A program made the translations under genes and the position numbers. A DNA stretch of 64,000 bases from a virus. The stretch is taken from positions 4,034 to 68,033 of IMG/VR virus record IMGVR_UViG_3300020439_001360. One strand, given 5' to 3'. Of this stretch, positions 26,995 to 61,455 are shown piece by piece. Each line of letters opens with the position of its first letter. Within the stretch, counting starts at the first letter, position 1. The notes beneath the pieces are model-generated. The model had not been told where the DNA came from and searched no databases. It saw only the letters and a list, made by a program, of their open reading frames with translations.

Positions 26995-29250
26995 ATGGAA
27001 CTAGGCGGTTCAGCAGTATTAGTAGATGTTATCCTTGTCGAAGGAACTGACAAGCAAGCATTTGTAGATAGTTTTGACGAGAATAAAGCAGAGTGGTGGA
27101 ATATGCTTCCATCTATGCCTACCTTACTTGTTATGCTCGTTGAGGGAGATTTCATAGAGACTCTAAAAGCAGATCCAAGAGTTGTTTCTGCAATGGAAGT
27201 TCCACAATCATTTCCATGTACTCTCCCAGATAAGGAGAGCATGACAAAAAGATTTACTTCTTCCACAAGTTCATCTTATAGAGCAGCATCTGGACTAGGA
27301 GAAGATAATTCGGGTCTCCAGTTTTACTTGGACACAGAACATATCGTTGCTACAGATCCTGGTGGAGAAATTCAAAAAATTGGTAGAGAAGTTGGTAGCA
27401 CTAATGGTGACGACGCATACTTTGTTGATGGCACTTATACTTCTAGATGGACTGGAAAGAACGTCGATATCGTCACATTAGAATCTGGTAGTGGTGGAGA
27501 CTGGTCTACTCACCAAGGTTTACATGATCTACACCCAGACTTCCAAAAGTTAGAAAGTGAAGATGACTCTCACGGGAGTGTACATCCTTACTGGTATCAG
27601 TGTACCATACACTCCAATATGAAGAATACCATCACAATTAATGATGCTGATGGTACTAGAGAAAACTATAATATTGCTGTAAGTTTTGGCGGAAGTGGAA
27701 TCTACACATTGAGTGGATCTGATAGAAATGGAACTGTCAATGGAAGCAATCCTCCACTAGTATTCCAAGAAGGAGATACTGTAACATTTAGCGTAACTGC
27801 TTCTGGTCACCCATTTGAAATTCGTTTTGCTGATGGTGGCGCTGCCGTAAGTGATGGCAGTGTTCAAAATAATGCCAGTGATTCTGGAGATGTAATCTGG
27901 ACTTTAAGAACGGCATCTAGATTCATTCCAATGGATTGGCCAGATCTAGAAGCAGCTGCCAACAACCAAGTAACATCTCAAGATGGTGGCAACAGTGGAT
28001 TGACTAATCACGGCATTGGTGTATTGAGTGTTTCTGGCGGTACTATTTGTGGATTTGCAAAGAAAGCAAATCTTTATGCAATGTACCTAGTTACTGGTGA
28101 CAGTCCAACAGAGTGTATTCAGGCATTGATTGATTGGCATAATGCCAAACCAAATAATCCAGAAACTGGAGAGAAAAACCCCACTATCATGATTGCAGAA
28201 TATCAATATCTGCAAGACAGGCAACGTGCAATTCCAGTAGATTATGTTGACAGTATTGTCACTCCAAATGGAACTGTCAATAGACCTGCTGGTGGTTCTT
28301 GGGGATCTGATCTATCAGATTTCGTGAGAGCAAACATTATCCCATTTAAAGTCTACGATGAAACTAACGGCACCAGATGGTGTGTCGTGATGCCTAACCA
28401 GTTTACATATAGTTCTTTACACACCGCACTAGAAACTGCTTGGAATAGTGGTATCATCTGTGTTAATGCCGCTGGTAATAATGGCGGAACATACACGAAG
28501 AGAGACGATTCTCAAGATGTGTACATCACTGTAGATGAACCAACGCCATATGATATTACATTCATTTCTTATGGGAGTGACAATAGTGCTTCTACTTCTA
28601 GCGTCACCACTTGGTATCCTCATATAGCATATGGTCCACATGGAACCAATAACAATATTGATGTAGCAGCAGGATACAACTCGGAAGCAATGCCTGGTTG
28701 GGACGGATATTCAAACCGTGGACCTGGTATTACTATTACAGGACTTGGAGCGAACACTTACAGTGCATATCAAACTTCAACATATGGATCCTACAAGTGG
28801 GGTATGTTCTCTGGAACAAGTTGTGCAACACCAACTGTTGTAGGAAAAATTGCTTGCCTGATGGAGAAGTATCAATACTATAATGGAACTTGGCCATCAC
28901 CAAATGCAACCAAGCAATTATTGGTCAGGGCAGCAAAGAATGTAGTACGTGGCATCCCTTCGGGAGGAACCAGTTTTTCTTGGACTAATGTTCCTAGTGC
29001 TGGTGGCGCATCCCTATCCAATGCAATTTCTTTTGGAAACTGCTCCATTACAAATGGCAGTGGAAATGGTGGTTACAAATACACAGAGGCAGCAGGAACA
29101 CCTGGACTACGAGCATTTTTTGACGAACCAGACTTCTCTGGTCATAAATTAAAACTTAAAGGTAGAAGACCAGTTCAGGGAGCAACATACCCCAGAACAT
29201 CTAATTCCATTGGAAGAACATCCGCAACCTACCCAGAATTGATCGTCTAA
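26995..29250 (+). CDS. Subtilisin-like (S8) serine protease, probably virion-associated
   Basis: TGKNVDIVTLESG, NHGIGV, AAGN and FSGTSCATP motifs in subtilase order; propeptide-like N-terminus. Confidence 0.82.
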   Translation: MELGGSAVLVDVILVEGTDKQAFVDSFDENKAEWWNMLPSMPTLLVMLVEGDFIETLKADPRVVSAMEVPQSFPCTLPDKESMTKRFTSSTSSSYRAASGLGEDNSGLQFYLDTEHIVATDPGGEIQKIGREVGSTNGDDAYFVDGTYTSRWTGKNVDIVTLESGSGGDWSTHQGLHDLHPDFQKLESEDDSHGSVHPYWYQCTIHSNMKNTITINDADGTRENYNIAVSFGGSGIYTLSGSDRNGTVNGSNPPLVFQEGDTVTFSVTASGHPFEIRFADGGAAVSDGSVQNNASDSGDVIWTLRTASRFIPMDWPDLEAAANNQVTSQDGGNSGLTNHGIGVLSVSGGTICGFAKKANLYAMYLVTGDSPTECIQALIDWHNAKPNNPETGEKNPTIMIAEYQYLQDRQRAIPVDYVDSIVTPNGTVNRPAGGSWGSDLSDFVRANIIPFKVYDETNGTRWCVVMPNQFTYSSLHTALETAWNSGIICVNAAGNNGGTYTKRDDSQDVYITVDEPTPYDITFISYGSDNSASTSSVTTWYPHIAYGPHGTNNNIDVAAGYNSEAMPGWDGYSNRGPGITITGLGANTYSAYQTSTYGSYKWGMFSGTSCATPTVVGKIACLMEKYQYYNGTWPSPNATKQLLVRAAKNVVRGIPSGGTSFSWTNVPSAGGASLSNAISFGNCSITNGSGNGGYKYTEAAGTPGLRAFFDEPDFSGHKLKLKGRRPVQGATYPRTSNSIGRTSATYPELIV

Positions 29251-32042: not shown

Positions 32043-35000
32043 ATGGTATTCTCCTACGCTGGTACTGGAAGAATGCCCCAGTTTGTTGCTGTGAAGGCAC
32101 TGGGGTTAATTTCTTACAGCTATACATCAGCGATTGAGGAGCAGTTTTTATATCTAGATTTTGGTGCGCTGGGTCGTGCATATTGGGTAATTGCAGACCA
32201 CGCAAGTAAAGTAATTGAAGATTACAAAGATGATCAAATAGTTGACTTGGTAGAGTCGGGCGGTCCCCTGAACCAAGTTGATTATGGATCTATCACAGAA
32301 GTAGAAGCATACGCCACGGATGACTGGGGCGAAATCACAGTCACATCAAATATTCAGGCAATGGGTCGTACCCATTTCCACTCGCTTACCACCTGGTCTG
32401 TTATCAAGACCTGGGTTGGTACAGGAACCGTCTGGGAGATGGACGGTGGCACCAGGTATCGACTGGATGCTCCTTGGATTGGTTCTGGTACGCTGCGACC
32501 ATACGGTTCTGCCAACACTCATTATGTACCTGCGATTGCTACGGAGGGACTACTACCCCTCCGTAGTGACACTAAAGTTGCTTATGCTCCTAACTGGAAT
32601 GCATTCGGCACCCTGTTCAGCGGTAGCTTTGCTGGAGAGGCTGTCACCAAGGTATTCCCAGAGGATCCTGATTATACGGTCAAACAAGGTTCACTTACTA
32701 CGTTAACTGCTGCGGATCTGTCTAGCGGTTACGGTGCGGTATATGAAGGATCTGTATTCTATTCTACCAGTGGAGCTGGCACCACTGCTACTAATGGATT
32801 TGCTGTAGGTCCACACGTCAGATTTGGCACAGCCACCGATCCTGGAGGTTCTAGTAGCACATTCAGAAAAGTTGAATATGATCTAGATCTCACTAATGTT
32901 GAGGAGATCACCTTTAGACTCGTCATGGGTAACGGGTCTAATGGCGGTGAGACTCCAGATAATGGTGAAGACCTATGGATGAGATTCCTATATACAGGTC
33001 TCTCTGTTGCTGATGCATCTAGAAAATTACTAGACAATACAGAAACTACTTACACGACTCCTGGCGATAAGACAGTTACTGTCCCAGTAGTTGCAAGAAA
33101 ACCTTATCAGACGATTAGAATTTACCAGTTAACATGGTCTGGTACATATGAATTTGATCACTACGGATTCATATCACTATCATATGGCAGCGAAGTTGTT
33201 GTCGGTGGAGTTGGTGATCAACGCAATAGTCTATTCAATGTTGTTGGTGACGCTAGTGTCAGCTTCAGACCTAACTGGGTTGGTTCTGGTGTCCTGTTTA
33301 ACTTCAGCACTACTACCTTCAAACAGACATATGATTATGTCGGTGAAGGAACTCTATTTGGATTCTCTTCCACAGAAGAAAGAGTCGTCTGGGATTACAA
33401 CAATTCCAGCATCGATTACTTTACCTATGAGAACTTTGGATCGGTTGCCGAGTCGCCAATCGAATCCATCACGATTCAGTCGATTGCTAATGAGACAATC
33501 CAGAGTCGTGCAAACGAAAGAATTATTGATCTAGTTGTATCTGGATCTACTTCTGGTGCATTCCTAGACTTTGGTAGTATTCTCACTGACGGTGAGCAGA
33601 CCCCATCTACTGTTGGACTCGATTGGGGTCACATTCTCACGAACCAGACAGATTATCCATTCGGTCTGTTCCCAATCAGTGGTACTGCCAAGCAAATATT
33701 TACTCCCAACTTTGTTGGTTCTGGATCTCTATTCGCTTTTGTCAGTGGTCGTGGCAGAACGAAACCCAGATGGATTGCTTATGTCAACATCGGAATCTTT
33801 GGTGCTGCGAAGACCAACTTCAGCTTGCTGCACATTGGTTCTGGTTCTCTATTCAGCATCAACAATGCAGACGACAGCAGAGCGTATGCATATAGAGGTT
33901 CTGGTGCCCTCTACGCCTTCTCTGGCGCTGCCGAGGCAGTCGGGTTCAACCCACCAGAAGACACCGCTATCCTGCCACTACAAGGTGCTGCAAACGTTGC
34001 CTTTGCTCCCAACTGGATTGCAGAAGGTACAGTCAAGGCAGAAGGCGCAGCGGTCGAGAGACAGACAGATCATTACAAAGGATCTGGAACTCTATTCAAC
34101 TTCGAGACTGCTGTCGAGAAAATCACATATCATTACAGCAGCACATCTAATGATATCTTCCAGTATCGCAACTACGGATCTGTTGCTGATCAACCAATTG
34201 AATCTATTACGATTCAATCTATTGCTAATGAGACCATTGAAAGTCGTAAGGACGACAGAATTATTGACCTGGTAGTAGGTGGTACTACTTCTGGATCTTA
34301 TCTGGATTATGGTCCAATTCTTATCGACGGCGAGGACGCTCCAGAGACTGTTCGCGAAGACTATGGTTCCATCATGGAATCCATTTCTCGCTACGCAATG
34401 GGCGATCTGTTGGTACATGGTACTGCAGGAGTCAGGAGAGAGTTCTCCTACGTTGGTAAAGGTGACCTGTTTGCATTCATCGAGGGTCGTGGTAGAACGA
34501 AACCCAGATGGATTGCCAATGTCAACATCGAGGTCAAAGGCGAGGCTCAAGATGCAGTCGTCAAACGCTTCATTGGCGACGGCAATCTATTCAACTTCGA
34601 GAAGGCAGAAGAAAGAAGAACCTTTGGTTACGAAGGTCAAGGAACCTTCTCCACATCTGGCGAAGCTTCTATTGCATACGAGAAAGCACCATATCGTGGA
34701 TTTGTCCTCTTCGATGTTACTGGCGACACGAGAATTGCATTCGTACCGAACTTCAATGGTTCTGGTGTTGCCACCATCGATGTCGGGCACGTCGAGAGAA
34801 CTACATTCAGCGAGGTTGGATCTGGTGTCCTCTTCGACATGGGCAACCTTGTCGAGAGAAGAACGTATCACTACAGTCATACTTCCGACACTATATTCAC
34901 TCCTCTGGATTATGGTTCGGTTGGTGCCAATCCAATCGACTCCATTACGATCCAATCTATCGCTAATGATACGATTGAAAGTCGTAAGGACCAGAGAATT

Positions 35001-38000
35001 ATTGATCTTGTAACCACAGGTTCTACCTCTGGTTCTTACTTCGATTATGGATCTGTCAGTGACTTCTATCCATCCATCACGGATGATTACGAAGGTATCA
35101 CCGAGACAGTCACCAGATATGCAATGGGTGGTCCACAAATCAGTGGTGCTGCCGATGTCAACTTCAGACCTGTCTACGTTGGTTCTGGAGACATTACTAT
35201 CAACGTCAGCACCATCGTCAGAGTGCTGCCCAGATGGATTGCCTTTGTGCCCATCGACTTTACAGGTGCTGCAACAGACACCTTCACCAAAGCATACAAG
35301 GGTTCTGGTATTGTTCCCCTACCTGTCAGCACGACAGATACCAGAAGCTTTGCATACGAAGGCAAAGGAGAACTATTTGCTATCAACGGTGGGGAGGAAG
35401 CATTTGCATTCGACTATCCACGTCAAGATCCTGTATTTACAATTACAGGCGAAGCAAATGTTGCATACGTTCCCAACTGGAATGGATCTGGTACGGCAGT
35501 CCTTTCTGGTACAGCAGTCGAGAGAGTTGCAGTCAATCCTCCTGCGCGTGGAGATCTCTTCAGCTTCAACAATCTCGATGAGCGTAGAACATATCATTAC
35601 AACTCCAGTTCTATTGATCTACTCAACAGAATCAGCTATGGTTCTGTTGCTTCGCCAGTCATTGATTCTTGGGTCATTGCTGACCATGCAACCAAGGTCA
35701 TTCAAGACTACAGAAATGATAAACTCGTCGATCTTGTCGAGGGAACTGGTGGCGACTACTTCGATTATGGATTCCTAGAACAAGAAAATGTTGGTGGTCT
35801 TCCCAACATCAATACCCCAGATGCTACTGAAGATTATCAGTTCATCATTGATCCTGAACTTGGTGCATCTAGATATCCATTCGGTGTTCTATTCCGTCAC
35901 TTTGAATCTGAAGTTGTTATTGGCATTAGTCTGCGTCACATCGCAGTCAACGAAAAACCAACCGTCAAGATTGGCGGCAAGGTATTCGTCAAACTTCCCA
36001 ACAAGCACCAGGGCGAAGGTGTTCTATTCAGCACTGGCGGCGCTGCAGAAACTGCAACATTCAGCGAAGTCAAGGACGGTCTATTCGAGTTTGTTGGATT
36101 CGCTGCAACCAGAAGAATCCCCAACTTCAATGGCGGCGGTACTATCAGATTGGATGGTGCATCCAGCAGTGCAGTTGCATTCGCAGGATTCCAAGAGAAT
36201 ACAATCGTCCTACGTGGTGTTGCTACTGTCAAGTACACGCCATCCTACACTGGAACTGGATTTATCTCCACTCTGTCTGGCGCTGCCGAGGCAATCACAG
36301 CAAGTCCAGACGATCTCTTCGGTCTATTCGACTTTGTTGGAACAGCAGCAGAGAGGACATCTGCAGCACATCTTGGTTCTGGTTCTCTGTTTGCACTATC
36401 TGGTGCAGGCGAAGCAGTCGCTGTTGCAGAAGAGAAGAGAAATCTTCTCAAAATCAGCGGCAACGCTGGCGAGAGATTCATCCCGAACTTCAATGGTTCT
36501 GGTACTCTATCTGTACTATCTGGCGCAGCAGAATCCAGAACAGCAAGTCCAGACGATCTGTTCACCCTGTTCGACTTTACTGGTCGTGGTACAGTCAAGG
36601 CAACTGTTGCCGAATCTGGATTCGCTCTTCTCTCTGTATCTGGCACAACAGAACCAGAAATTCTCACGTTTGCAGAGCAACCATTTGGCACTGCTACGAT
36701 CAGCGGCAACGCTGGAGAGAGATTTGTTCCCAACTGGATTGGTTCTGGTACTATCGCAACCCTATCGGGTGCAGCAGAATCTGCAACATTCAATCCTCTG
36801 GAGAGACAGCTTCTGTTCTCCATGGGCGGCATTGCTACAGAAGTATTTGCTGCAGCACCCGCAATCGAAGGAACAGAGATCAAACTCTCTGGAACCACCG
36901 CTCCAGAAATTCGCACATTTGCAGAGCAACCACTCGGAGACATCTTTGTCGGTGGTCTTGCAGAATACGTTCACGTCGATGTATACGGTGGATTCGGTAC
37001 TCTATTCTCTGGAGGATTTACTTCCGAGTCTGTCACATTCAAGATTCCTCCAACCAGAGAAGCAGACATTCTCTTCCGTGGAGAGGCAGTCGAGCGTGTT
37101 GCATTCAATCCACCAGAAGAAACTGCACATCTTCTCCTTTCTGGAGAGGTTGTCATTCCTCTTCGCACATTTGCAGAGCAACCAACCGTTCGTGTTGCTA
37201 TCAGCGGTGTTGCAATCGAGAAGAACACCGAAGTATATGTTGGAACTGGTGCTATCTTCTCCAACGGATTCACCTCCGAATCTGTTACCAGAAAACTTCC
37301 AGAGTTCACAGCACACCTCAATGTTACTGGTCTCGCAGAAGAGAGAGCAACATTCAGAGAGATATTCTTTGGTTCCCTCTTCAAGTTCAGAGGATCTGCA
37401 GGTCGCGCACTTCTCACGTTTGCAGAGCAACCACAGACTCTATCCAAGATTAGTGGTGTTGCTGTTACCACCAGAGCAAGAGACTTCGTTGGCGAAGGCA
37501 ACATTGCAACTCTTTCTGGTGCTGCCGAGGCAGTCACCTTCAATCCTCTGGAAAGAGATCTGCTCTTCGATGTTACTGGCATCGCTGAAACCAGATACTC
37601 CCGCACTTGGGTTGGTTCTGGTCAAATCAAGGTTTATCCAGAAGCAGCAGACATCAGATTCATCCCCAACTGGAATGCCGAAGGTGTCATTCCCGTCAGT
37701 GGTGTTGCAGTCGAGCGTGTCGCAAGAGACGAGGTTGTTCAGGTCAACATCGGAACATTCTCTGGTGCAGCAGAGTCTGTTACCTTCAATCCTCTCGAAA
37801 AGGATATGCTGTTCTCCATCGGAGGCAGAGCAGCATACAGAACTTCTGTATCGGAAGTCAAACTTGCCAACGCAAGACTCTTCGCAGACGACAACAACGG
37901 AACAACCACCAAGATACACGTTGGTTCTGGAACAGCAACTCTATCTGGTGCTGGTCGCATTGTCATTACTCTCTCCTACATTGGAGACATCAGAATTGGT

Positions 38001-38981
38001 ACATTCTCTGGTGCAGCAGAAGCAGTCACCTTCAATCCACTGGAGAAGGATCTACTATTCTCTGCATCTGGTATTGCAACCCTACGTTCCACTCGCGCTT
38101 ACTCTGGAACTGGTTCTCTCTTTGCAATCAACGGTGCAGCAGAATCCAGAACCGTTGTTCCACCAGCAGATGGTCTGTACGCGATCAACGGCGAAGCAAA
38201 TATTGTTATTACTCTCTCCCATGTTGGCGATGGAAGTCTATTCAGCTTTGTCAAGGGTGCAGAAAGCTTCACTTACGATTACGTCGGAGAACAAGTTCTC
38301 TTCGATCTATCTGGCGAAGCAATCGAGAGAATCACCAATGTATATGCTGGATCTGGTTCTATCTTCTCTATCGGCGGTGCTGCAGAAAGAGTCGCTTTTG
38401 TACCAAGTCTCCTCGCAGATGTCAACATCAGTGGTGTTGCAGCGACACCAAGATCCAGAGTATTCACTGGTTCTGGAGATCTATATGCATTCGGTGGTGC
38501 AGCAGAGTCCAGAACAATTACTTACGAGAACGTCGCAATCTTCGACTTCCTCGGTCAAGTCAAACCTGCCATTACCAAGGTACATGTTGGCGATGGAGAG
38601 ATCGAAGTTACTGGCGAAGCAGCAGTTGCATTCGCCAGAGCACCTTACTCTGGTCAGGCAGAAGTTCAACTATCTGGCACAGCAACAGAAAGCACAACTG
38701 CCAACCCACCAGAAGAGGGCACAGAGATTGCAACTTCTGGCGAGGCAAAGGTTCTTCGCTCCTTCGGTTACGAGGGATCTGGTCAACTCAAAGTACACGG
38801 CGACACCATTATCGGTATTTCTCTCCGTATCTTTGGTACTGGATCTATCAAGGTCGATGTTCGCACCAGATACTTCCCACTACTCCAGCACAGAGCAGAT
38901 GTTCATATCTACATCGCTGGCAGCGCAGCAACTGTCAAGATTGATGTTGCTCCACCACGTACCTATGGATGGATTATTTAA
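32043..38981 (+). CDS. Large repetitive structural protein, 2312 aa (fibre scaffold or ruler-like)
   Basis: About 40-aa G.G.LF...GAAE repeats interleaved with about five DYGS...IIDLV domains. Confidence 0.8.
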   Translation: MVFSYAGTGRMPQFVAVKALGLISYSYTSAIEEQFLYLDFGALGRAYWVIADHASKVIEDYKDDQIVDLVESGGPLNQVDYGSITEVEAYATDDWGEITVTSNIQAMGRTHFHSLTTWSVIKTWVGTGTVWEMDGGTRYRLDAPWIGSGTLRPYGSANTHYVPAIATEGLLPLRSDTKVAYAPNWNAFGTLFSGSFAGEAVTKVFPEDPDYTVKQGSLTTLTAADLSSGYGAVYEGSVFYSTSGAGTTATNGFAVGPHVRFGTATDPGGSSSTFRKVEYDLDLTNVEEITFRLVMGNGSNGGETPDNGEDLWMRFLYTGLSVADASRKLLDNTETTYTTPGDKTVTVPVVARKPYQTIRIYQLTWSGTYEFDHYGFISLSYGSEVVVGGVGDQRNSLFNVVGDASVSFRPNWVGSGVLFNFSTTTFKQTYDYVGEGTLFGFSSTEERVVWDYNNSSIDYFTYENFGSVAESPIESITIQSIANETIQSRANERIIDLVVSGSTSGAFLDFGSILTDGEQTPSTVGLDWGHILTNQTDYPFGLFPISGTAKQIFTPNFVGSGSLFAFVSGRGRTKPRWIAYVNIGIFGAAKTNFSLLHIGSGSLFSINNADDSRAYAYRGSGALYAFSGAAEAVGFNPPEDTAILPLQGAANVAFAPNWIAEGTVKAEGAAVERQTDHYKGSGTLFNFETAVEKITYHYSSTSNDIFQYRNYGSVADQPIESITIQSIANETIESRKDDRIIDLVVGGTTSGSYLDYGPILIDGEDAPETVREDYGSIMESISRYAMGDLLVHGTAGVRREFSYVGKGDLFAFIEGRGRTKPRWIANVNIEVKGEAQDAVVKRFIGDGNLFNFEKAEERRTFGYEGQGTFSTSGEASIAYEKAPYRGFVLFDVTGDTRIAFVPNFNGSGVATIDVGHVERTTFSEVGSGVLFDMGNLVERRTYHYSHTSDTIFTPLDYGSVGANPIDSITIQSIANDTIESRKDQRIIDLVTTGSTSGSYFDYGSVSDFYPSITDDYEGITETVTRYAMGGPQISGAADVNFRPVYVGSGDITINVSTIVRVLPRWIAFVPIDFTGAATDTFTKAYKGSGIVPLPVSTTDTRSFAYEGKGELFAINGGEEAFAFDYPRQDPVFTITGEANVAYVPNWNGSGTAVLSGTAVERVAVNPPARGDLFSFNNLDERRTYHYNSSSIDLLNRISYGSVASPVIDSWVIADHATKVIQDYRNDKLVDLVEGTGGDYFDYGFLEQENVGGLPNINTPDATEDYQFIIDPELGASRYPFGVLFRHFESEVVIGISLRHIAVNEKPTVKIGGKVFVKLPNKHQGEGVLFSTGGAAETATFSEVKDGLFEFVGFAATRRIPNFNGGGTIRLDGASSSAVAFAGFQENTIVLRGVATVKYTPSYTGTGFISTLSGAAEAITASPDDLFGLFDFVGTAAERTSAAHLGSGSLFALSGAGEAVAVAEEKRNLLKISGNAGERFIPNFNGSGTLSVLSGAAESRTASPDDLFTLFDFTGRGTVKATVAESGFALLSVSGTTEPEILTFAEQPFGTATISGNAGERFVPNWIGSGTIATLSGAAESATFNPLERQLLFSMGGIATEVFAAAPAIEGTEIKLSGTTAPEIRTFAEQPLGDIFVGGLAEYVHVDVYGGFGTLFSGGFTSESVTFKIPPTREADILFRGEAVERVAFNPPEETAHLLLSGEVVIPLRTFAEQPTVRVAISGVAIEKNTEVYVGTGAIFSNGFTSESVTRKLPEFTAHLNVTGLAEERATFREIFFGSLFKFRGSAGRALLTFAEQPQTLSKISGVAVTTRARDFVGEGNIATLSGAAEAVTFNPLERDLLFDVTGIAETRYSRTWVGSGQIKVYPEAADIRFIPNWNAEGVIPVSGVAVERVARDEVVQVNIGTFSGAAESVTFNPLEKDMLFSIGGRAAYRTSVSEVKLANARLFADDNNGTTTKIHVGSGTATLSGAGRIVITLSYIGDIRIGTFSGAAEAVTFNPLEKDLLFSASGIATLRSTRAYSGTGSLFAINGAAESRTVVPPADGLYAINGEANIVITLSHVGDGSLFSFVKGAESFTYDYVGEQVLFDLSGEAIERITNVYAGSGSIFSIGGAAERVAFVPSLLADVNISGVAATPRSRVFTGSGDLYAFGGAAESRTITYENVAIFDFLGQVKPAITKVHVGDGEIEVTGEAAVAFARAPYSGQAEVQLSGTATESTTANPPEEGTEIATSGEAKVLRSFGYEGSGQLKVHGDTIIGISLRIFGTGSIKVDVRTRYFPLLQHRADVHIYIAGSAATVKIDVAPPRTYGWII
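36669..37433 (+). repeat. Intragenic direct repeat TTTGCAGAGCAACCA (FAEQP), four copies
   Basis: Copies start at 36669, 36918, 37170 and 37419 (spacing 249, 252, 249 nt). Confidence 0.85.
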
Positions 38982-38984
38982 TAG

Positions 38985-38992
38985 TATAAATA
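38985..38992 (+). promoter_or_regulatory. T4-type late promoter
   Basis: TATAAATA 25 nt before the ATG at 39018. Confidence 0.8.
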
Positions 38993-39017
38993 ACATTGGT
39001 ATCCTAAATTAATTTTA

Positions 39018-39476
39018 ATGACTACCCAGGTACAGTTTAGAAGAGGTACTACTGCTGAACATGCTCACTTCGCGGGAGCGCAGGGTGAGTTGACTATTGA
39101 TACTGATAAGAATATGGCGGTTGTCCATGATGGACAAACGAATGGTGGATTTGACGTTTTTCGTGCTCGGTGGGAGTATCTAAATCAAAGTGTCACACTT
39201 GGCACAAGTCTTCGTTATCTCGTGGACTCGTCGGGTGGACCACTCACACTGACTCTGCCACTATATAATAATCAGTTGGTTCCCAAAGCAGGGGACACTA
39301 TGGAGTTCATTGATATTAATTTTACGTGGGATACAAATAATGTAACAATAATCGATCCAATTGGAAGAGAATTTCAAAACACTTTTGGAGTTATTTCCAG
39401 TCCTTTAGTATTCGACTTGAAAGGAGCGAGAGTGCAACTAATTTGGGACGGTAACTACTGGAGGGTAATTGTATGA
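39018..39476 (+). CDS. Fibre attachment/connector protein
   Basis: QVQFRRGTTAEH..F.GA.GE.T.DTDK...VHDG N-terminus (Mtd/hyaluronidase-N-like); DS.GG..TLTLP...GD....ID C-terminal domain. Confidence 0.72.
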   Translation: MTTQVQFRRGTTAEHAHFAGAQGELTIDTDKNMAVVHDGQTNGGFDVFRARWEYLNQSVTLGTSLRYLVDSSGGPLTLTLPLYNNQLVPKAGDTMEFIDINFTWDTNNVTIIDPIGREFQNTFGVISSPLVFDLKGARVQLIWDGNYWRVIV

Positions 39477-39880: not shown

Positions 39881-42800
39881 ATGGCAGATTTCAGATTAGG
39901 CAGACTTAAGTTTAATTGGAGGGGCGACTGGACAGTTGCCACTGCATACGTCATCGATGACATCGTTAAGTTTGGCGCAAACACTTTTGTTTGTATTTCC
40001 AACCACACGTCAGCATCGAATGAAGCACAATGGTATGGATCGGATGGTGCCAGATGGCAACTCCATACCGAAGGCATTTACCACAGAGGTGAATGGGCGG
40101 ATGCAACCTTCTATAGAACCAATGATATTGTCAAGTATGGCAATGATCAGTATAGAGTTGTCAACCCTCATACTTCCAGCGGATCTTTCGCTGCTGCAAA
40201 CTTCGTCTCGTATATTAATGGACTGAAGTTTGAAGATACGTGGGATACCAACACTGAATACCAACCAGGTGACATTGTAACTTTCGGTGGTTACTCTTAT
40301 GTTGCTCAAACAATCTCTACGGGTTCCCAACCCAATAGCACTATTGGCAGCGACTGGGAGATTCTAACTACTGGTTTCAAGGTGGTTGGTACATGGAGCA
40401 ACAGCACCGAGTATAAGCCTGGTGACGTTGTACTCCTTGGTGGTAACTCTTACGTTGCCAAGACAACCAACACAAACTCCACACCTGGAGCCAATCCTTC
40501 TGATTGGGACTTCGTTGTTGGTGGTTTCACCTGGAGAGGCACTTGGGATAGCAGCACAACCTACCAACCTGGTGATGCTGTTACCAGAGCAAGTAACTCC
40601 TACATCTGTATTGCCGAAACAACTGGCAACGAACCTGAACTAGATGTTAACGGAGACTACTGGAACTCCTTGACCCAAGGCGCACAGTCTAACGTTCTAA
40701 CCGATCCTGGTGATGTTCTCTACATCTCTGGTTCTGGTGCTGCAAGACTACCTATCGGAACAACTGGTCAAGTTCTAACTGTTGATTCTAATGGATTCCC
40801 AGCATGGGAAAATAATAATGTTACTGATCCTGTTTACTATGTTACCACAAATGGCAACGACCTAAACGATGGTTCTAACATTAGTAAAGCATTTGCTTCA
40901 CTCTCTCATGCAGTAAGTCTTGTTACTGGTCCTGCTACCATTTATGTTAAGGCAGGTATCTATAACGAAACTCTACCAATCATCGTTCCCGAGAACGTTT
41001 CGATCATTGGTGATAACATGAGAACGTCCACCATTAAACCAAATGTTGGACAACCTTCTAACATCCAAAGACTAACACTCGCACAGATTCCTCTTCAAAC
41101 CGAAAGAGTCATTGGCGAGACATGCGCCAACGGTGCTGGCGATAAGACCGCACAGATCATGGATGTCAGAGACGGTGGTGCTACTATTGACGTTATGCCA
41201 CTGACTGGTGGTGTTTGGACTATCGCTGATACTTTCGATAACGGCGGTGCTGATATTACACTCAATACAGTAACCACTCTCAACAACGAGAACGCAACTC
41301 TCTTCTATCTGTCTAACAGATCGATGCTGAAGGATCTCGTTATGGATGGTATGGCAGGATTCGTTCCTTCGGTTATTGATCCAAAGGATATGAACACCTC
41401 TATTCCAGATGGTGTATTCGTCAGACTGAATCCTAACTCCCCAATCACCAAGTCTCCTTACGTTTCGCAGTGTTCTGCATTCTCACAGACTGGTATTGGT
41501 GCAATTGTTGACGGTGGTGTTCACGACAAGTATGACGGAACTGCAACTCCTTCTAACAAGTCTATCGTTTTTGACTCTTGGACTAACATCCACGAAGACG
41601 GTGGTGTAGGTTTCTGGATTACGAACAACGGCGCTGCTGAAATTGTATCCTGCTTCACCTACTATTGCCACATCTCCTACACCTCTACTAGAGGCGGTAG
41701 AATCAGATCTCTTGCAGGTAACTCCTCCTGGGGTACTTACGCTATTGTTTCTTCTGGTTTCAACGAGAACGAATCTACTCTCGATGGTTTCATCGATGGT
41801 ATTGAACTTAACTACGATCTTACCACTCTTTCGACTGGTGCATCGTTCGAGACCGATGAGCAAGTTATTGGCGGTACTTCTGGTGCGGTTGGCGAAGTTA
41901 CTAGCTTCCAACCTTCTGCAGATAAGATTCTTATCCGTCCTCTCAAAGGTAACTTTGCACAGAATGAAGTTGTTACTGGTCAAACTTCTGGTGCTTTTGC
42001 AACTCTGGTCAACAACTCTGATGCACAGCAAGGTATCTCTGGATTCACCTTTGTTCTTGGCGGTCTAACTGCTGCTCCTGACCCAGGTGGTTCTATTGAA
42101 TACATCACTGGTCCTGGTGGAATCGGTGCTGACCTCTTCACCTATGTTATTGCAAACTCTTCTTATCGTGGTCCTAATGGTCGTGGCGAACTGACCGTAA
42201 CTAGAGGACTGTTGGGTTCTGCTGCTGCAACTCACGATGGTTTGAGCAATGTTATTAGATACCAAACTGGTACTGCAACATCTCTAACCGCTCCTATCAG
42301 TGATGCAGTAGGTACTGTTATTCAAGTTGCTTCTATTACTGGTATCAACACTGGTGGTTATATTATCATCGAAAATGAGATGATGGAAGTTGTCTCCTTC
42401 CCAACTGCAACTTCGGTCGAGGTTATCAGAGGAGTAGAAGGAACCACTGCTGCTACCCACAACTCGGGCGTTACTGTTAGAGCACTTCAAATCAAAGTTC
42501 CTAACGAAACAACTACTGCTAGAGACCTGACCGCAAGCGACACAGTTATTCTTGTCGAATCTTCTACAGGTACTCTATCTTCTGATTATATTAAGATTGA
42601 CAATGAGTTCATGCAGGTATCTACCTCTGCAACAATTACAACTGGTACTGTTCTAGTTGTTCTCGCAGAAGAGAAGCCAACACCAACTTATGATCGTCAA
42701 GCTTCAAGAATCAGATACCTGTATTCTCAAGTCAGACTAACTGGTCACGACTTCCTGGATATTGGTACTGGTAACAAGACACAGACTAACTGGCCAGGTC

Positions 42801-43153
42801 AGCCACTTTCGGCACCTGCACCAGGTAATGAGGTTACTGAAAACTTCCCTGGTCGTGTGTTCTTCGTATCCACGGACCAAGATGGTAACTTCACTGTTGG
42901 TCGTTACTTCAAAGTTAACCAGGCAACTGGTAGCACAACCTTGAACGCATCGTCCTTCGACCTATCTGGTCTATCGTCCTTGAGACTGGGTTCCATCGGT
43001 GCTCAAATCGGTGAATCCATTAATGAGTTCACAAGCGACGTTACATTCTCTGCTAATAGCAACTCTAAAGTTCCTACGCAGAAGGCAGTCAAGACTTACG
43101 TTGACACAAAGACGAAGACTAAAGGCTTCACTTTCTGGGCGGGAGCAATGTGA
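39881..43153 (+). CDS. Tail fibre / carbohydrate-binding virion protein
   Basis: MADFRLGRLKFNWRG.W; about six W...T.Y...D.V..G...Y repeats (CBM5/12-like); YYV...GND.NDG...AFAS...A and IYVKAG.Y.E.LP beta-helix start. Confidence 0.78.
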   Translation: MADFRLGRLKFNWRGDWTVATAYVIDDIVKFGANTFVCISNHTSASNEAQWYGSDGARWQLHTEGIYHRGEWADATFYRTNDIVKYGNDQYRVVNPHTSSGSFAAANFVSYINGLKFEDTWDTNTEYQPGDIVTFGGYSYVAQTISTGSQPNSTIGSDWEILTTGFKVVGTWSNSTEYKPGDVVLLGGNSYVAKTTNTNSTPGANPSDWDFVVGGFTWRGTWDSSTTYQPGDAVTRASNSYICIAETTGNEPELDVNGDYWNSLTQGAQSNVLTDPGDVLYISGSGAARLPIGTTGQVLTVDSNGFPAWENNNVTDPVYYVTTNGNDLNDGSNISKAFASLSHAVSLVTGPATIYVKAGIYNETLPIIVPENVSIIGDNMRTSTIKPNVGQPSNIQRLTLAQIPLQTERVIGETCANGAGDKTAQIMDVRDGGATIDVMPLTGGVWTIADTFDNGGADITLNTVTTLNNENATLFYLSNRSMLKDLVMDGMAGFVPSVIDPKDMNTSIPDGVFVRLNPNSPITKSPYVSQCSAFSQTGIGAIVDGGVHDKYDGTATPSNKSIVFDSWTNIHEDGGVGFWITNNGAAEIVSCFTYYCHISYTSTRGGRIRSLAGNSSWGTYAIVSSGFNENESTLDGFIDGIELNYDLTTLSTGASFETDEQVIGGTSGAVGEVTSFQPSADKILIRPLKGNFAQNEVVTGQTSGAFATLVNNSDAQQGISGFTFVLGGLTAAPDPGGSIEYITGPGGIGADLFTYVIANSSYRGPNGRGELTVTRGLLGSAAATHDGLSNVIRYQTGTATSLTAPISDAVGTVIQVASITGINTGGYIIIENEMMEVVSFPTATSVEVIRGVEGTTAATHNSGVTVRALQIKVPNETTTARDLTASDTVILVESSTGTLSSDYIKIDNEFMQVSTSATITTGTVLVVLAEEKPTPTYDRQASRIRYLYSQVRLTGHDFLDIGTGNKTQTNWPGQPLSAPAPGNEVTENFPGRVFFVSTDQDGNFTVGRYFKVNQATGSTTLNASSFDLSGLSSLRLGSIGAQIGESINEFTSDVTFSANSNSKVPTQKAVKTYVDTKTKTKGFTFWAGAM

Positions 43154-60646: not shown

Positions 60647-61455
60647 TGTTAGGACCACATTTTTATAACGAAGCGATTAGGAAAACAGTAATCGGTTTCG
60701 GTACACTATTCAACAATATTGAAATCAGGAAGAAAGATCCTTCTACTGGAACTGTGATTGAAGCAGAGAAGGTTCCTCTTGCTTATGGTCCCAAGCAAAA
60801 ATTTCTAGCAAGACTAGAACAGAACCCTGACGTTGATAAGAAGATCGCGATCACTTTGCCTCGTCTCTATTTTGAGATGACAAATATTTCTTATGACACA
60901 TCTAGAAAAATCACAGCAACCCAAAAGCTTAAGAAGACTATTGATGCAGATGGAGAATCCCTCTCTGTACAATACGTGCCCGTACCCTATAACATGGAGT
61001 TTGAACTCGGAATCATCGCCAAGTCACAAGACGACGGACTACAGATTCTTGAGCAAATACTTCCGTTCTTCCAACCAAATTTCAACATTACGTTGAACAT
61101 GATCCCAGACATGGGAGAGAAGAAGGATATCACTATCAACCTAAACAACATCAACTATGAAGATGATTGGGACGGTGACTTCCTAGACAGAAGAAGCATT
61201 GTGTGGACGTTGAACTTCACTGCTAGATCTTTCATCTACGGTCCTTTCACCAAGTCTGGTGTTATCAAGAAGGCAACAATTATCGAAGCAACTGGAGACA
61301 AGAATGGATCTCCAGAGAACAGACATACACAACTTACATACACACCCAAGGCACTGGAAGACAAAAACCAGGATGGTGTTATCGATGCACAAGACGACGC
61401 ACTTGTCATCAGTACAGACGACTTTGGATTTAACGAGGGTATTGATTTGTTATGA
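60646..61455 (+). CDS. gp15: Tail sheath stabilizer / tail terminator gp15
   Basis: FYNE.IRK.VI.FGTLFNNI, VPLAYGPKQKFLARL, PVPYN, QILEQILPFFQP. Confidence 0.95.
   Translation: MLGPHFYNEAIRKTVIGFGTLFNNIEIRKKDPSTGTVIEAEKVPLAYGPKQKFLARLEQNPDVDKKIAITLPRLYFEMTNISYDTSRKITATQKLKKTIDADGESLSVQYVPVPYNMEFELGIIAKSQDDGLQILEQILPFFQPNFNITLNMIPDMGEKKDITINLNNINYEDDWDGDFLDRRSIVWTLNFTARSFIYGPFTKSGVIKKATIIEATGDKNGSPENRHTQLTYTPKALEDKNQDGVIDAQDDALVISTDDFGFNEGIDLL

What the first reader, a model, noticed from the sequence alone, without database searches (positions are those of the whole stretch)
35930..38941. About 3 kb with almost no stop triplets in any forward frame inside the 2312-aa repeat gene
Seen: reading by eye I find only two TAA/TAG/TGA triplets on the + strand here (TAG 37451, TGA 37586, both in the +2 frame). 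The +1 frame is open 35788-39012 (1074 aa), running past the main stop to 5 nt before the next ATG. The +2 frame is open about 35930-37450 and 37589-38941. The gap is specific: TGG, TAC and TAT are common, the minus strand has stops, and T-ending codons remain frequent (GGT TCT GGT). They are swapped for C/A-ending synonyms before GA/AA/AG codons (GCC GAG, GGC GAA, GTC AAG, TTC GAC), whereas neighbouring genes freely use GGT GAC, GCT GAA, CTA GAT. Inference: selection against off-frame termination, the reverse of the usual ambush pattern, implies ribosomes or the gene itself spend time out of frame here. Candidate explanations are programmed frameshifting or bypassing giving alternative fibre isoforms, tolerance of compensating indels during repeat shuffling, preventing cleanly truncated dominant-negative scaffold fragments, or a real overlapping product.
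Basis: partly seen in the sequence, partly recalled or inferred. Interest (0 to 1): 0.88.

Follow-up and report, generated by a model that had tools for sequence, protein, structure and literature searches.

The report
Phage fibre gene purged of off-frame stops
The last 3 kb of a giant tail-region gene of a marine cyanophage has been cleared by natural selection of nearly every stop codon in its two unused reading frames, the opposite of what is normally expected, and no described mechanism explains why.

Summary
In 35931-38978 (1016 codons of the 2312-aa gene 32043-38981) there are 0 (+1 frame) and 3 (+2 frame) stop triplets. Synonymous-codon shuffles give 18.5 and 64.3, and 0 of 1000 shuffles came near the observed counts. 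The 29 other ORFs of the window are normal.

The loss is specific to stops and to the sense strand. It is produced by codon choice and is still under selection: 2 private off-frame stops against about 22 expected from 158 synonymous differences to S-CAM1.

New here:
- The +1 frame is kept open across the whole gene family, down to about 30% identity. The +2 frame is kept open only in some lineages.
- In each of 5 complete genomes that carry the gene, it is the only purged gene.
- Three readings are not supported: an overlapping gene, canonical -1 frameshifting and compensated indels.
That link is loose.

Best guess (0.3): ribosomes that lose the frame are kept from releasing truncated, anchor-bearing fibre chains.

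This scan has already noted the same phenomenon on other cyanophage DNA at least seven times. I found no paper that describes it.

The parts
32043..38981 (+). Giant tail-module gene (2312 aa), member of PHROG 11522 (unknown function). It is the positional ortholog of S-CAM1 SXBG_00232 / N330309_099 and S-CAM3 S250808_094.
   Evidence: ORF. phrog_11522 matched at E=0 over the full length, with no Pfam family. 88.8% nt identity to S-CAM1. Synteny with tail protein and tail fibre genes.
32043..33131 (+). N-terminal 363 codons with normal off-frame stop density. Residues 154-382 resemble part of the 'baseplate wedge subunit' of S-RIM8-type phages, so this may be the virion anchor.
   Evidence: Off-frame stops 15 vs 19.8 (+1) and 32 vs 30.5 (+2). 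tblastn 32.5% identity, E 2e-12.
33594..35578 (+). Middle part. Four repeat arrays (33594-34147, 34277-34456, 34494-34963, 35085-35578) carry 0-1 off-frame stops. They are separated by insert domains (34148-34276, 34964-35084, 35579-35927) with normal density.
   Evidence: Arrays: 0-1 vs 11-13 expected in +2. Inserts: 8/7.7, 5/4.9 and 12/13. This purge is specific to the window's clade and shows little ongoing selection (P 0.024, 0.35, 1, 1, 1, 0.92).
35928..38941 (+). Main stop-free zone: the C-terminal repeat region (residues about 1296-2300) with two off-frame stops in 3 kb.
   Evidence: Ongoing selection: 1-9 private stops vs 16-39 expected against 5 of 6 orthologs.
35788..39012 (+). +1-frame ORF of 1074 codons. 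It is open because the stops were purged and is not a conserved gene.
   Evidence: The product is rich in L/S/Q and does not resemble frame 0. There is no conserved ATG after the last +1 stop in 40 family members.
37451..37453 (+). Residual +2 (-1) frame TAG across ATT|AGT (I1803-S1804). It is conserved in 10 of 15 aligned orthologs and lies in a stretch that is nearly identical among S-CAM1-type genes.
37586..37588 (+). Residual +2 frame TGA (GCT|GAA), private to the window among the 15 aligned sequences.
38942..38944 (+). +2 frame TGA (ATT|GAT), 12 codons before the gene's stop. It marks the end of the zone in this frame and is shared by 6 of 15 aligned orthologs.
38985..38992 (+). TATAAATA directly after the stop codon. 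It matches the T4-type late promoter consensus (consensus recalled, not tested) and is present at the same place in the orthologs.
   Evidence: Sequence. Orthologs.
39018..39476 (+). Next gene: a 152-aa tail protein (phrog_9648).

Best explanation
Shown: in the C-terminal repeat region of this virion (tail/baseplate module) gene, synonymous codon choice removes stop triplets from the two unused sense frames. T-ending codons are swapped for C- or A-ending ones before GA/AA/AG codons. NTA and NTG codons are avoided before purines. Purifying selection still removes new off-frame stops.

Inferred, step 1 (about 65%): the agent that 'sees' these triplets is the ribosome with its release factors, because exactly the three stop triplets, and only on the sense strand, are affected.

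Inferred, step 2 (about 30% overall): the benefit is that a ribosome which has lost the frame in the last ~1000 codons cannot be released there. It runs on to the end of the gene, where all three frames stop within about 70 nt. The cell then makes no stable C-terminally truncated chains that keep the N-terminal anchor and part of the modular repeat shaft. Such chains could occupy virion sites or co-assemble and poison fibres. A chain with a long nonsense tail is instead expected to be degraded or excluded, and the phage's own tmRNA may help with this.

The +1 frame is protected in the whole family. The -1 frame is protected only in some lineages.
For: - Stop-specific, strand-specific depletion: 0 and 3 stops vs 18.5 and 64.3 expected, with 0 of 1000 shuffles reaching the observed value. 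TGG/TGC/TGT are enriched where TGA is lost. The minus strand is normal.
- Ongoing selection: 2 private stops vs 22.1 expected from 158 synonymous differences to S-CAM1. Control parts of the same gene show 8 vs 3.6 and 26 vs 17.6. This was replicated in 14 informative ortholog pairs: +1 at P<0.01 in 12 of 14 and +2 at P<=0.01 in 7 of 14. It was also replicated for the zone against 5 of 6 orthologs.
- Only openness is constrained. The alternative-frame peptides are weaker shadows of frame 0 (523 bits in frame 0 vs 90 and 168 bits for S-CAM3). The share of synonymous differences in the zone (158/3048) is like the rest of the gene (39/624 and 120/2688).
- The feature is specific to one gene. In 7 complete cyanomyovirus genomes the only 300-codon windows with observed/expected below 0.6 lie in this syntenic gene. 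This holds in 5 genomes; 2 genomes have none.
- The N-terminal 363 codons, where a truncated product would lack a complete anchor, are not purged.
- The N-terminal part resembles a baseplate wedge protein, and the neighbouring genes are tail genes.
- tmRNA genes are present in S-CAM1, S-CAM3, S-SSM7 and Sf-FS3, and there are sub-threshold tmRNA-like matches in G007 and G008.
Against: - Nothing shows ribosomes out of frame here. There is no slippery heptamer (0 vs 2.6 expected), and T-runs are avoided as in control genes.
- A frameshifted chain is defective whether it is cut short or runs on, so the benefit rests on an untested difference in stability or assembly.
- A -1-frame TAG at residue 1803 is conserved in 10 of 15 orthologs, yet the -1 frame upstream of it is still kept open. 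A simple 'never terminate early' model does not predict this.
- Three other giant structural genes of the same phage (3031, 2706 and 1673 aa) are not purged (ratios 0.88-0.93).
- Normal +1 run-on is already about 55 codons, yet +1 is the frame protected most widely.
- The tmRNA link is loose. S-CRM01 has a tmRNA and no purged gene. S-SCSM2R has a partly purged gene and no detected tmRNA.
- The fold of the region could not be modelled (pLDDT 27.5).
Confidence: 0.3

Rival explanations
1. Evolvability or indel tolerance. With no off-frame stops, single-base indels, or paired indels, in this fast-evolving host-recognition gene give readable variant proteins rather than truncations. This has been proposed for PE_PGRS genes and shown for an engineered loop of B. 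subtilis Otc.
For: - The concept is in print. PMC13328622 reports PE_PGRS genes depleted in out-of-frame stops and proposes robustness to frameshifts (passages read). PMC13006647 reports that removing out-of-frame stops widened the indel spectrum (abstract read).
- The gene is mosaic and variable. There is a 555-nt module difference to S-CAM1, and metagenome contigs skip or replace segments.
Against: - No natural variant shows a frame change. All 5 indels against S-CAM1 are multiples of 3.
- In 10 orthologs the only indels that are not multiples of 3 are one -1/+4 pair 15 nt apart, which is alignment ambiguity around a +3.
- There were 0 shifted-register patches in 78 pairs of 13 orthologs.
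- There were 0 hits of any alternative-frame translation to any frame-0 protein of 33 genes.
- The alternative-frame peptides are R/S/C/W-rich or L/S/Q-rich and unlike the repeats.
- Second-order selection would have to hold about 80 sites.
Confidence: 0.12
2. Off-frame translation is itself useful, and only its continuity matters. Ribosomes that load at the many +1-frame start codons, or that slip, stay on the 3' part of the 7-kb late mRNA and shield it, or are delivered to the gene's end. The analogy is the stop-free reverse ORF of ambigrammatic narnaviruses.
For: - The +1 frame, the only off-frame with many start codons (106 ATG/GTG/TTG in the zone against 2 in +2), is the frame kept open family-wide.
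- Off-frame starts are not depleted (ATG 21 vs 18.6).
- In the window the +1 frame ends 5 nt before the next start codon.
- Narnavirus precedent for selection on openness without a conserved protein: PMC8155312 and PMC8316113 (search listing and abstracts only).
Against: - It does not explain the +2 purge, because that frame has almost no starts.
- In 10 of 40 family members the +1 frame has a stop within the last 16 codons, and its stop position relative to the next gene varies from +4 to +61.
- The next gene has its own TATAAATA.
- Making up to 1000 aa of nonsense protein is costly.
- Local RNA structure is not special (z -5.5 vs -4.1 and -2.8 in controls).
Confidence: 0.12
3. Channelling to trans-translation. 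Off-frame ribosomes that meet no stop stall on rare off-frame codons or at mRNA ends and are rescued by the phage-encoded tmRNA. The tmRNA tags the aberrant chain for proteolysis, whereas an off-frame stop would release it untagged.
For: - ARAGORN finds tmRNA genes in S-CAM1, S-CAM3, S-SSM7 and Sf-FS3. The S-CAM1 and S-CAM3 tag is ANTSDSAANNIVAFSRSTVAA. All four carry the purged gene.
- There are sub-threshold tmRNA-like matches in G007 (complete) and G008.
- The -1 frame is rich in Arg, Cys and Trp codons.
Against: - The association is not strict and is confounded by relatedness. S-CRM01 has a tmRNA and no purged gene. S-SCSM2R has a partly purged gene (ratio 0.32) and no tmRNA by ARAGORN or Rfam.
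- All Rfam matches were below the gathering score.
- All three frames end in ordinary stops at the end of the gene, so run-on ribosomes can terminate normally.
- The enrichment of CGA and AGA in the -1 frame follows directly from the T-to-C/A swaps, so it is not independent evidence.
Confidence: 0.1
4. Programmed frameshifting or an overlapping gene gives alternative products, such as fibre isoforms with a different C-terminal part or a shorter isoform ending at the conserved -1-frame TAG at residue 1803.
For: - There are long open alternative frames (1074 codons in +1; 507 and 451 codons in +2).
- A -1-frame stop at residue 1793-1806 recurs in 13 of 15 aligned orthologs inside an otherwise stop-free desert. 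It sits at 1802 in 10 of them, at 1793 in L019 and L035, and at 1798/1806 in L028.
Against: - There are 0 X XXY YYZ heptamers in the zone and none upstream of the TAG.
- There is no conserved start after the last +1 stop (0-125 codons, different sequence contexts).
- The alternative-frame peptides are less conserved than frame 0 in every comparison.
- Substitutions are dominated by third positions of frame 0.
- The synonymous rate is not reduced.
- The conserved TAG lies in a stretch that is nearly identical at the DNA level, so it may be a passenger.
Confidence: 0.08
5. Not translation at all. The three triplets are avoided as DNA or RNA motifs, for example as sites of a nuclease, primase or promoter-like element, or the gap is a by-product of repeat ancestry, gene conversion or composition.
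For: - The zone is richer in GC (0.48-0.50 vs about 0.41).
- Repeats share ancestry, with 70-85% identical stretches at offsets of 243-252 nt.
- The purge of the middle arrays looks like a clade-specific relic rather than a selected state.
- Lack of TAA also removes TATAAATA-type motifs (inference).
Against: - Exactly the stop set is lost, while TGG, TGC, TGT, TAT and TAC stay or rise.
- The effect is strand-specific and confined to one gene per genome.
- Shuffles keep composition and codon usage.
- Tandem Repeats Finder finds no arrays.
- The private-stop test does not depend on ancestry and is met in many lineages.
- The two frames evolve differently in the same DNA. A frame-blind motif filter would not do that.
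Confidence: 0.06

Closest known systems
Ambush hypothesis / hidden (out-of-frame) stop codons (Seligmann & Pollock 2004, recalled via reference lists; tests in PMC5909447, PMC3700767 and PMC2996987, search listing and abstracts only)
   Same: It concerns selection on stop triplets in the unused sense frames of coding sequences, in relation to frameshifted ribosomes. The null models are the same kind (synonymous or codon-based expectations).
   Different: The sign is opposite. That hypothesis expects off-frame stops to be kept or enriched genome-wide as a weak effect. Here they are almost eliminated (3 vs 83 expected) in one gene region, while the rest of the phage is normal.
Genes poor in out-of-frame stops proposed to tolerate frameshifts: PE_PGRS of Mycobacterium tuberculosis (PMC13328622, passages read) and the engineered Otc loop of B. 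subtilis (PMC13006647, abstract read)
   Same: A variable, repeat-rich surface or host-interaction gene with few off-frame stops. The idea is that translation can continue past a frameshift.
   Different: Here the depletion is measured against synonymous shuffles that keep the region's own codon usage, in DNA of 48% GC, and by a direct test of selection. No frameshift-derived variation was found. I did not check how far base composition accounts for the PE_PGRS case.
Ambigrammatic narnaviruses (bioRxiv 10.1101/761890 = PMC6884476; PMC8316113; PMC8155312; search listing and abstracts only)
   Same: A long frame is kept free of stops by synonymous choice in the main gene, although the frame does not seem to encode a conserved protein. 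What is selected is openness.
   Different: There the open frame is on the reverse complement of an RNA virus genome. Here two sense-strand frames of a dsDNA phage gene are open, the minus strand is normal, and only part of the gene is affected.
Overprinted same-strand overlapping genes and programmed frameshift products of phages (phiX174 nested genes, lambda G/GT, dnaX tau/gamma; recalled)
   Same: Long open alternative frames inside a phage gene.
   Different: There is no conserved alternative-frame start, no slippery site, no excess conservation of the alternative-frame peptide and no drop in synonymous rate. Both alternative frames are open at once.

Membership tests
PHROG 11522 / S-CAM1 SXBG_00232-like giant tail-module protein | Full-length profile match | tested here: met
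   phrog_11522 at E=0, 1-2312 vs 1-2130 of the profile. 88.8% nt identity to the S-CAM1 gene. At least 511 relatives at E<=1e-5.
PHROG 11522 / S-CAM1 SXBG_00232-like giant tail-module protein | Synteny: the gene lies upstream of the 152-aa tail protein and the tail-fibre-like gene, and has the conserved C-terminus ...RTYGWII | tested here: met
Overlapping (dual-coding) gene | Alternative-frame product conserved beyond the shadow of the main frame; reduced synonymous rate | tested here: not met
   Alternative frames score below frame 0 in all comparisons. The share of synonymous differences in the zone is like the rest of the gene.
Overlapping (dual-coding) gene | Conserved start codon for the alternative frame | tested here: not met
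   The first ATG lies 0-125 codons after the last +1 stop, in different sequence contexts, across 40 family members.
Programmed -1 ribosomal frameshift | Slippery heptamer X XXY YYZ in phase | tested here: not met
   0 in the zone against 2.6 expected. Control genes also have 0. None upstream of the conserved TAG.
Programmed -1 ribosomal frameshift | Downstream stimulatory RNA structure; trans-frame protein | not testable with these tools
   Local folding is more stable than in shuffles, but this is also true of control genes. No proteome or ribosome profiling data were available.
Hidden-stop ('ambush') enrichment | Off-frame stops at or above expectation | tested here: not met
   3 vs 83 expected.
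Ambigrammatic (reverse-strand) stop-free ORF | Stops depleted on the complementary strand | tested here: not met
   Minus-strand stops 19/19, 86/93.6 and 20/20.5.
Frameshift-tolerant hypervariable gene (PE_PGRS-like proposal) | Depletion of out-of-frame stops | tested here: met
Frameshift-tolerant hypervariable gene (PE_PGRS-like proposal) | Variants that differ by frame-shifted segments | tested here: not met
   Logan contigs cannot show rare variants.

The most novel reading that the evidence does not exclude
These cyanophages write one fibre gene so that a ribosome which loses the reading frame cannot terminate inside it. This would be a built-in translational quality-control design. The +1 frame is protected in the whole family and the -1 frame in some lineages. 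The design may work together with the phage's own tmRNA, so that aberrant giant chains are tagged or rendered harmless instead of being released as poisonous truncated fibres. If so, off-frame reading in infected picocyanobacteria is frequent enough to shape about 80 synonymous sites per gene.
Probability: 0.2. Interest if true: 0.85.

Novelty: new variant of a known kind. Interest (0 to 1): 0.72.

Why it matters
Off-frame stop codons are usually treated as neutral or mildly useful. Here one gene family shows the reverse, strongly: about 25-fold depletion, maintained by selection down to about 30% protein identity, and frame-specific.

If the cause is translational, this is a natural and very sensitive readout of how often and in which direction ribosomes lose the frame in infected marine cyanobacteria. 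It would also show that truncated structural proteins can be costly enough to shape hundreds of silent sites.

There are practical consequences. Gene callers and overlapping-gene detectors will call false long alternative-frame ORFs here. Codon-optimisation rules that add 'ambush' stops could harm such genes.

The phage-host pair S-CAM1 / Synechococcus WH7803 is culturable, so the question can be tested directly.

Tried and rejected
Tried, without a useful result:
- The AlphaFold2 model of the zone (15-row alignment) had mean pLDDT 27.5, so no fold could be read.
- Complex prediction with three copies of residues 700-1016 of the zone gave no verdict (score 0.00). It says nothing for or against trimerisation.
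- The ESM Atlas returned only unnamed viral clusters below 0.9.
- Pfam gave nothing above E=0.1.
- Tandem Repeats Finder found 0 arrays.

Considered and rejected or downgraded:
- Alternative-frame peptides against frame-0 proteins: 0 hits at E<=1e-3 for 33 genes. The alternative-frame peptides match nothing else in the window.
- No conserved C-terminal degron at the ends of the alternative frames.
- In-frame avoidance of near-stop codons (TCA/TCG) holds in the window (4% vs 12%) but is inconsistent in distant orthologs, so I dropped it.
- Avoidance of T-runs, slippery heptamers and SD-like motifs is generic, not specific to this gene.
- RNA folding is more stable than in synonymous shuffles, but this is also true of control genes.
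- A lenient nucleotide aligner produced thousands of +1/-1 pairs 2-10 nt apart. I treat these as artefacts of the gap penalties and replaced that test.
- The short indel pairs in the metagenome contigs (table 4) lie within 22 nt of each other, at 85% minimum likeness, and are ambiguous in the same way. All runs laid were contigs, which cannot show rare variants, starts, ends or strand. An RNA-library run covered 24 of 30 bins, but that does not prove transcription.
- tmRNA in the lineages with an unpurged +2 frame could not be judged, because those contigs are 19-34% complete. No cultured phage of that lineage is in the phage collection.

Literature searches that found no description of this phenomenon. 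Supplementary files were not consulted.
Full report
WHAT IS THERE. The finding lies in the 3' 3 kb of a 6.9-kb gene (32043-38981, + strand, 2312 aa). The gene sits in a tail and baseplate gene block of a T4-like cyanomyovirus. The upstream neighbours include a virion structural protein. Downstream lie a 152-aa tail protein (phrog_9648) and a 1090-aa tail fibre protein (phrog_9851).

The protein has no Pfam family and matches PHROG 11522 (unknown function) over its full length. The closest cultured relatives are Synechococcus phages S-CAM1 (88.8% nt identity) and S-CAM3 (25-38% protein identity). Residues 154-382 resemble part of a 'baseplate wedge subunit' of S-RIM8-type phages. The extreme C-terminus (...PRTYGWII) is the best conserved motif of the family. 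TATAAATA follows the stop codon directly. That it matches the T4 late promoter consensus is recalled, not tested.

After 35927 the + strand carries only three stop triplets before the gene's own stop. They are TAG 37451, TGA 37586 and TGA 38942, all in the +2 frame. The +1 frame is open from 35779 to 39009, and its ORF runs from ATG 35788 to 39012, 5 nt before the next ATG.

I shuffled synonymous codons within 35931-38978, which keeps the protein and the region's own codon usage. The shuffles give 18.5 +/- 2.8 stops in +1 and 64.3 +/- 5.7 in +2, against 0 and 3 observed. None of 1000 shuffles had fewer than 62 in total.

The loss is specific to stops. In the +2 frame TGA is 2 vs 31.6, TAA 0 vs 18.6 and TAG 1 vs 14.2. 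Meanwhile TGG (74 vs 48), TGC, TGT, CGA, AGA, CAA and CAG rise, so T is replaced by C or A before GA/AA/AG codons. Stops on the minus strand are at expectation.

The region's codon usage itself has shifted. TTA is 0 of 71 Leu codons, GTA is 14% vs 32% elsewhere, and T at third positions is 0.32 vs 0.41. The shuffle therefore understates the effect.

The other 29 ORFs of the window have observed/expected ratios of 0.82-1.12, including genes of 3031, 2706, 1673 and 1090 aa. Eight of the 10 all-frame stop-free gaps of at least 150 nt in the window lie in this gene.

IT IS SELECTION, NOT ANCESTRY. Repeat ancestry could inflate a shuffle expectation, so I used a test that does not depend on it. The window and S-CAM1 differ at 158 synonymous sites in the zone, and 14% of all possible synonymous changes there would create an off-frame stop. 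About 22 stops private to one of the two sequences are therefore expected. Two are seen (Poisson P 7e-8). In two control parts of the same gene, 8 were seen vs 3.6 expected and 26 vs 17.6.

The test repeats in other lineages (14 informative pairs, which are not independent of one another). It also repeats for the zone against 5 of 6 orthologs, with 1-9 private stops vs 16-39 expected. The sixth ortholog, L026, has partly lost the purge.

Substitutions are dominated by third positions of frame 0, and all five indels against S-CAM1 are multiples of 3.

CONSERVATION AND A NEW PATTERN. I analysed 30 of the 36 IMG/VR loci found with the zone protein. The six left out are cut loci: L011, L020, L021, L022, L032 and L033. 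Many of the 30 are near-duplicates. Counting off-frame stops in the last 1000 codons, 24 loci have 1-7 stops against 77-104 expected. Three have 36, two have 68, and one (L040, 26% identity) is normal at 123 vs 134.

A second scan with the alignment brought in distant relatives. I passed 39 of its 77 loci to the analysis, and 37 could be analysed. In the last 800 codons, the +1 frame has 0-7 stops against 10-23 expected in all 37. The +2 frame ranges from 6/56 to 80/79. Flanking genes in the same loci are normal, for example 158/151 and 316/359.

The private-stop test shows that the +1 frame is under current selection in 12 of 14 pairs (P<0.01). This includes lineages whose +2 frame turns over freely: L169-L171 (+1: 2 vs 14.6; +2: 52 private), L184-L187 and L179-L159. 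The +2 frame is under selection in 7 of 14 pairs.

The two frames are therefore separate targets. Openness of +1 is a family trait. Openness of -1 (= +2) is a lineage trait. It is strongest in the S-CAM1, S-CAM3 and L036 types and is absent in the AT-richer members (GC 0.37-0.41).

WITHIN THE WINDOW'S GENE. The N-terminal 363 codons are normal (15 vs 19.8 and 32 vs 30.5). In the middle part, four repeat arrays have 0-1 stops against 11-13 expected in +2, while the insert domains between them are normal.

That middle purge is confined to the window's clade. The orthologs L008, L015 and L023 carry 47-51 private off-frame stops in those segments (none shared with the window). The selection test there is weak or null (P 0.024, 0.35, 1, 1, 1, 0.92). 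I read it as a relic or a recent extension. The consistently selected unit is the C-terminal ~1000 codons.

ONE GENE PER GENOME. I scanned seven complete cyanomyovirus genomes. All-frame gaps of at least 300 nt, and 300-codon windows with observed/expected below 0.6, occur only in this syntenic gene. This is so in S-CAM1, S-CAM3, S-SSM7, Sf-FS3 and, more weakly, S-SCSM2R. S-CRM01 and S-RIM8 have none. The next lowest genes are at 0.66-0.81.

WHAT IT IS NOT.
(a) It is not an overlapping gene. The alternative-frame peptides are L/S/Q-rich (+1) or R/S/C/W-rich (+2). They resemble neither frame-0 proteins (0 hits) nor anything else in the window. Between distant orthologs they are conserved less than frame 0 (523 vs 90 and 168 bits). 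The synonymous rate is not lowered. No start codon is conserved after the last +1 stop.
(b) It is not canonical -1 frameshifting. There are no X XXY YYZ heptamers in the zone. T-runs and such heptamers are avoided equally in control genes.
(c) It is not compensated frameshifts. Ten orthologs show only indels that are multiples of 3, apart from one ambiguous -1/+4 pair. Seventy-eight ortholog pairs show no 18-nt patch that matches better in a shifted register.
(d) It is not a frame-blind DNA or RNA motif filter. The minus strand is normal and the two frames evolve differently.
(e) It is not RNA structure. The z-score is -5.5 in the zone against -4.1 and -2.8 in two control genes.

THE tmRNA LEAD. 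ARAGORN finds a tmRNA next to tRNA-Arg and tRNA-Val in S-CAM1 and S-CAM3, with the tag ANTSDSAANNIVAFSRSTVAA. It also finds one in S-SSM7, Sf-FS3 and S-CRM01, and none in S-RIM8 or S-SCSM2R. All Rfam matches are below the gathering score.

Among the seven complete cultured genomes, 4 of the 5 with a purged gene have a tmRNA. S-SCSM2R, which is weakly purged, has none detected. One of the 2 without a purged gene (S-CRM01) has one. Two further metagenomic genomes that carry a purged gene (G007, G008) have sub-threshold Rfam tmRNA-like matches. The co-occurrence is real but not strict, and it is confounded by relatedness.

MECHANISM. Exactly the stop set is lost, only on the sense strand, and differently in the two frames. 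I therefore take the ribosome with its release factors as the selective agent (about 65%). I cannot show why termination in the wrong frame should be harmful here.

The most coherent reading (0.3) is this. A chain released early inside the modular repeat shaft keeps its N-terminal part, is stable and interferes with assembly. A chain that runs on into hundreds of nonsense residues is degraded, tagged or excluded.

Several facts count against this reading. A -1-frame TAG at residue 1803 is conserved in 10 of 15 aligned orthologs, with the frame upstream still kept open. Other giant genes are not purged. The +1 frame, where normal run-on is already long, is the frame protected most widely. Nothing indicates that this sequence is prone to slipping.

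The rivals are listed with their odds. About a fifth of the probability remains with causes I have not thought of.

KNOWN PARALLELS AND NOVELTY. The ambush literature expects the opposite sign. PE_PGRS genes have been reported as poor in out-of-frame stops, with a frameshift-tolerance proposal (PMC13328622, passages). Removing such stops widened the indel spectrum in an engineered B. subtilis loop (PMC13006647, abstract). Ambigrammatic narnaviruses keep a reverse-strand frame open without an evident protein (listing and abstracts only).

None of these describes a sense-strand, frame-specific, single-gene purge in a DNA phage. My searches found no such account. Earlier agents of this scan noted the same phenomenon on at least seven other cyanophage windows, so it is a property of a gene family, not of this window alone.

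Noticed in passing
window 32043-38981 and 40 family genes in loci L005-L198: In-frame start-capable codons are scarce across the whole gene family. ATG+GTG+TTG are 0.52-0.54 per 100 codons vs 2.01 in flanking genes, and TTG is 3.5-3.8% of Leu codons vs 12.1%, while CTG is not depleted. The window's gene has the lowest density of 28 genes (0.78; other giant genes 1.65-2.15). This may be selection against internal initiation.
   Followed up: partly
window 37380-37520 (around TAG 37451): A stretch of about 150 nt is nearly identical at the DNA level among S-CAM1-type orthologs that are otherwise 64-90% identical. It carries the one conserved off-frame stop (ATT|AGT). The TFAEQP motif recurs four times at a spacing of about 83 aa upstream of it. 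It may be a recombination anchor.
   Followed up: partly
L041 1279-1593 (S-CAM1 HQ634177 108643-108957); L042 1571-1885 (S-CAM3): ARAGORN calls a phage tmRNA gene (tag ANTSDSAANNIVAFSRSTVAA) beside tRNA-Arg(TCT) and tRNA-Val(TAC). The GenBank records annotate the place as a hypothetical protein or tRNA-Arg. The Rfam score is below the gathering cut-off (34.9 vs 47 bits).
   Followed up: partly
window 32667-33221: The window's gene has one extra ~185-aa module (555 nt) relative to S-CAM1. Metagenome contigs show further segment skips or replacements in the zone. Those whose replaced letters are listed are in-frame once those letters are counted.
   Followed up: partly
window 28665-28840 and 61225-61430: These are the only two all-frame stop-free gaps of at least 150 nt outside the gene (177 and 207 nt). 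The second lies in a stretch with AT skew 0.27.
   Followed up: no
window 38970-38981 and orthologs: The C-terminus ...(A/Q)P.R(T/S/V)Y(G/V)WII is conserved from S-CAM1-type to 26%-identical relatives, including L040, which lacks the purge. TATAAATA follows within 3-10 nt in most.
   Followed up: no
window 15450-18449, 35931-38978 and 39881-43150: All three genes tested fold more stably in 120-nt windows than their synonymous shuffles do (z -2.8, -5.5 and -4.1). T-runs and SD-like motifs are also avoided in controls. These look like general features of the phage's coding sequences.
   Followed up: no
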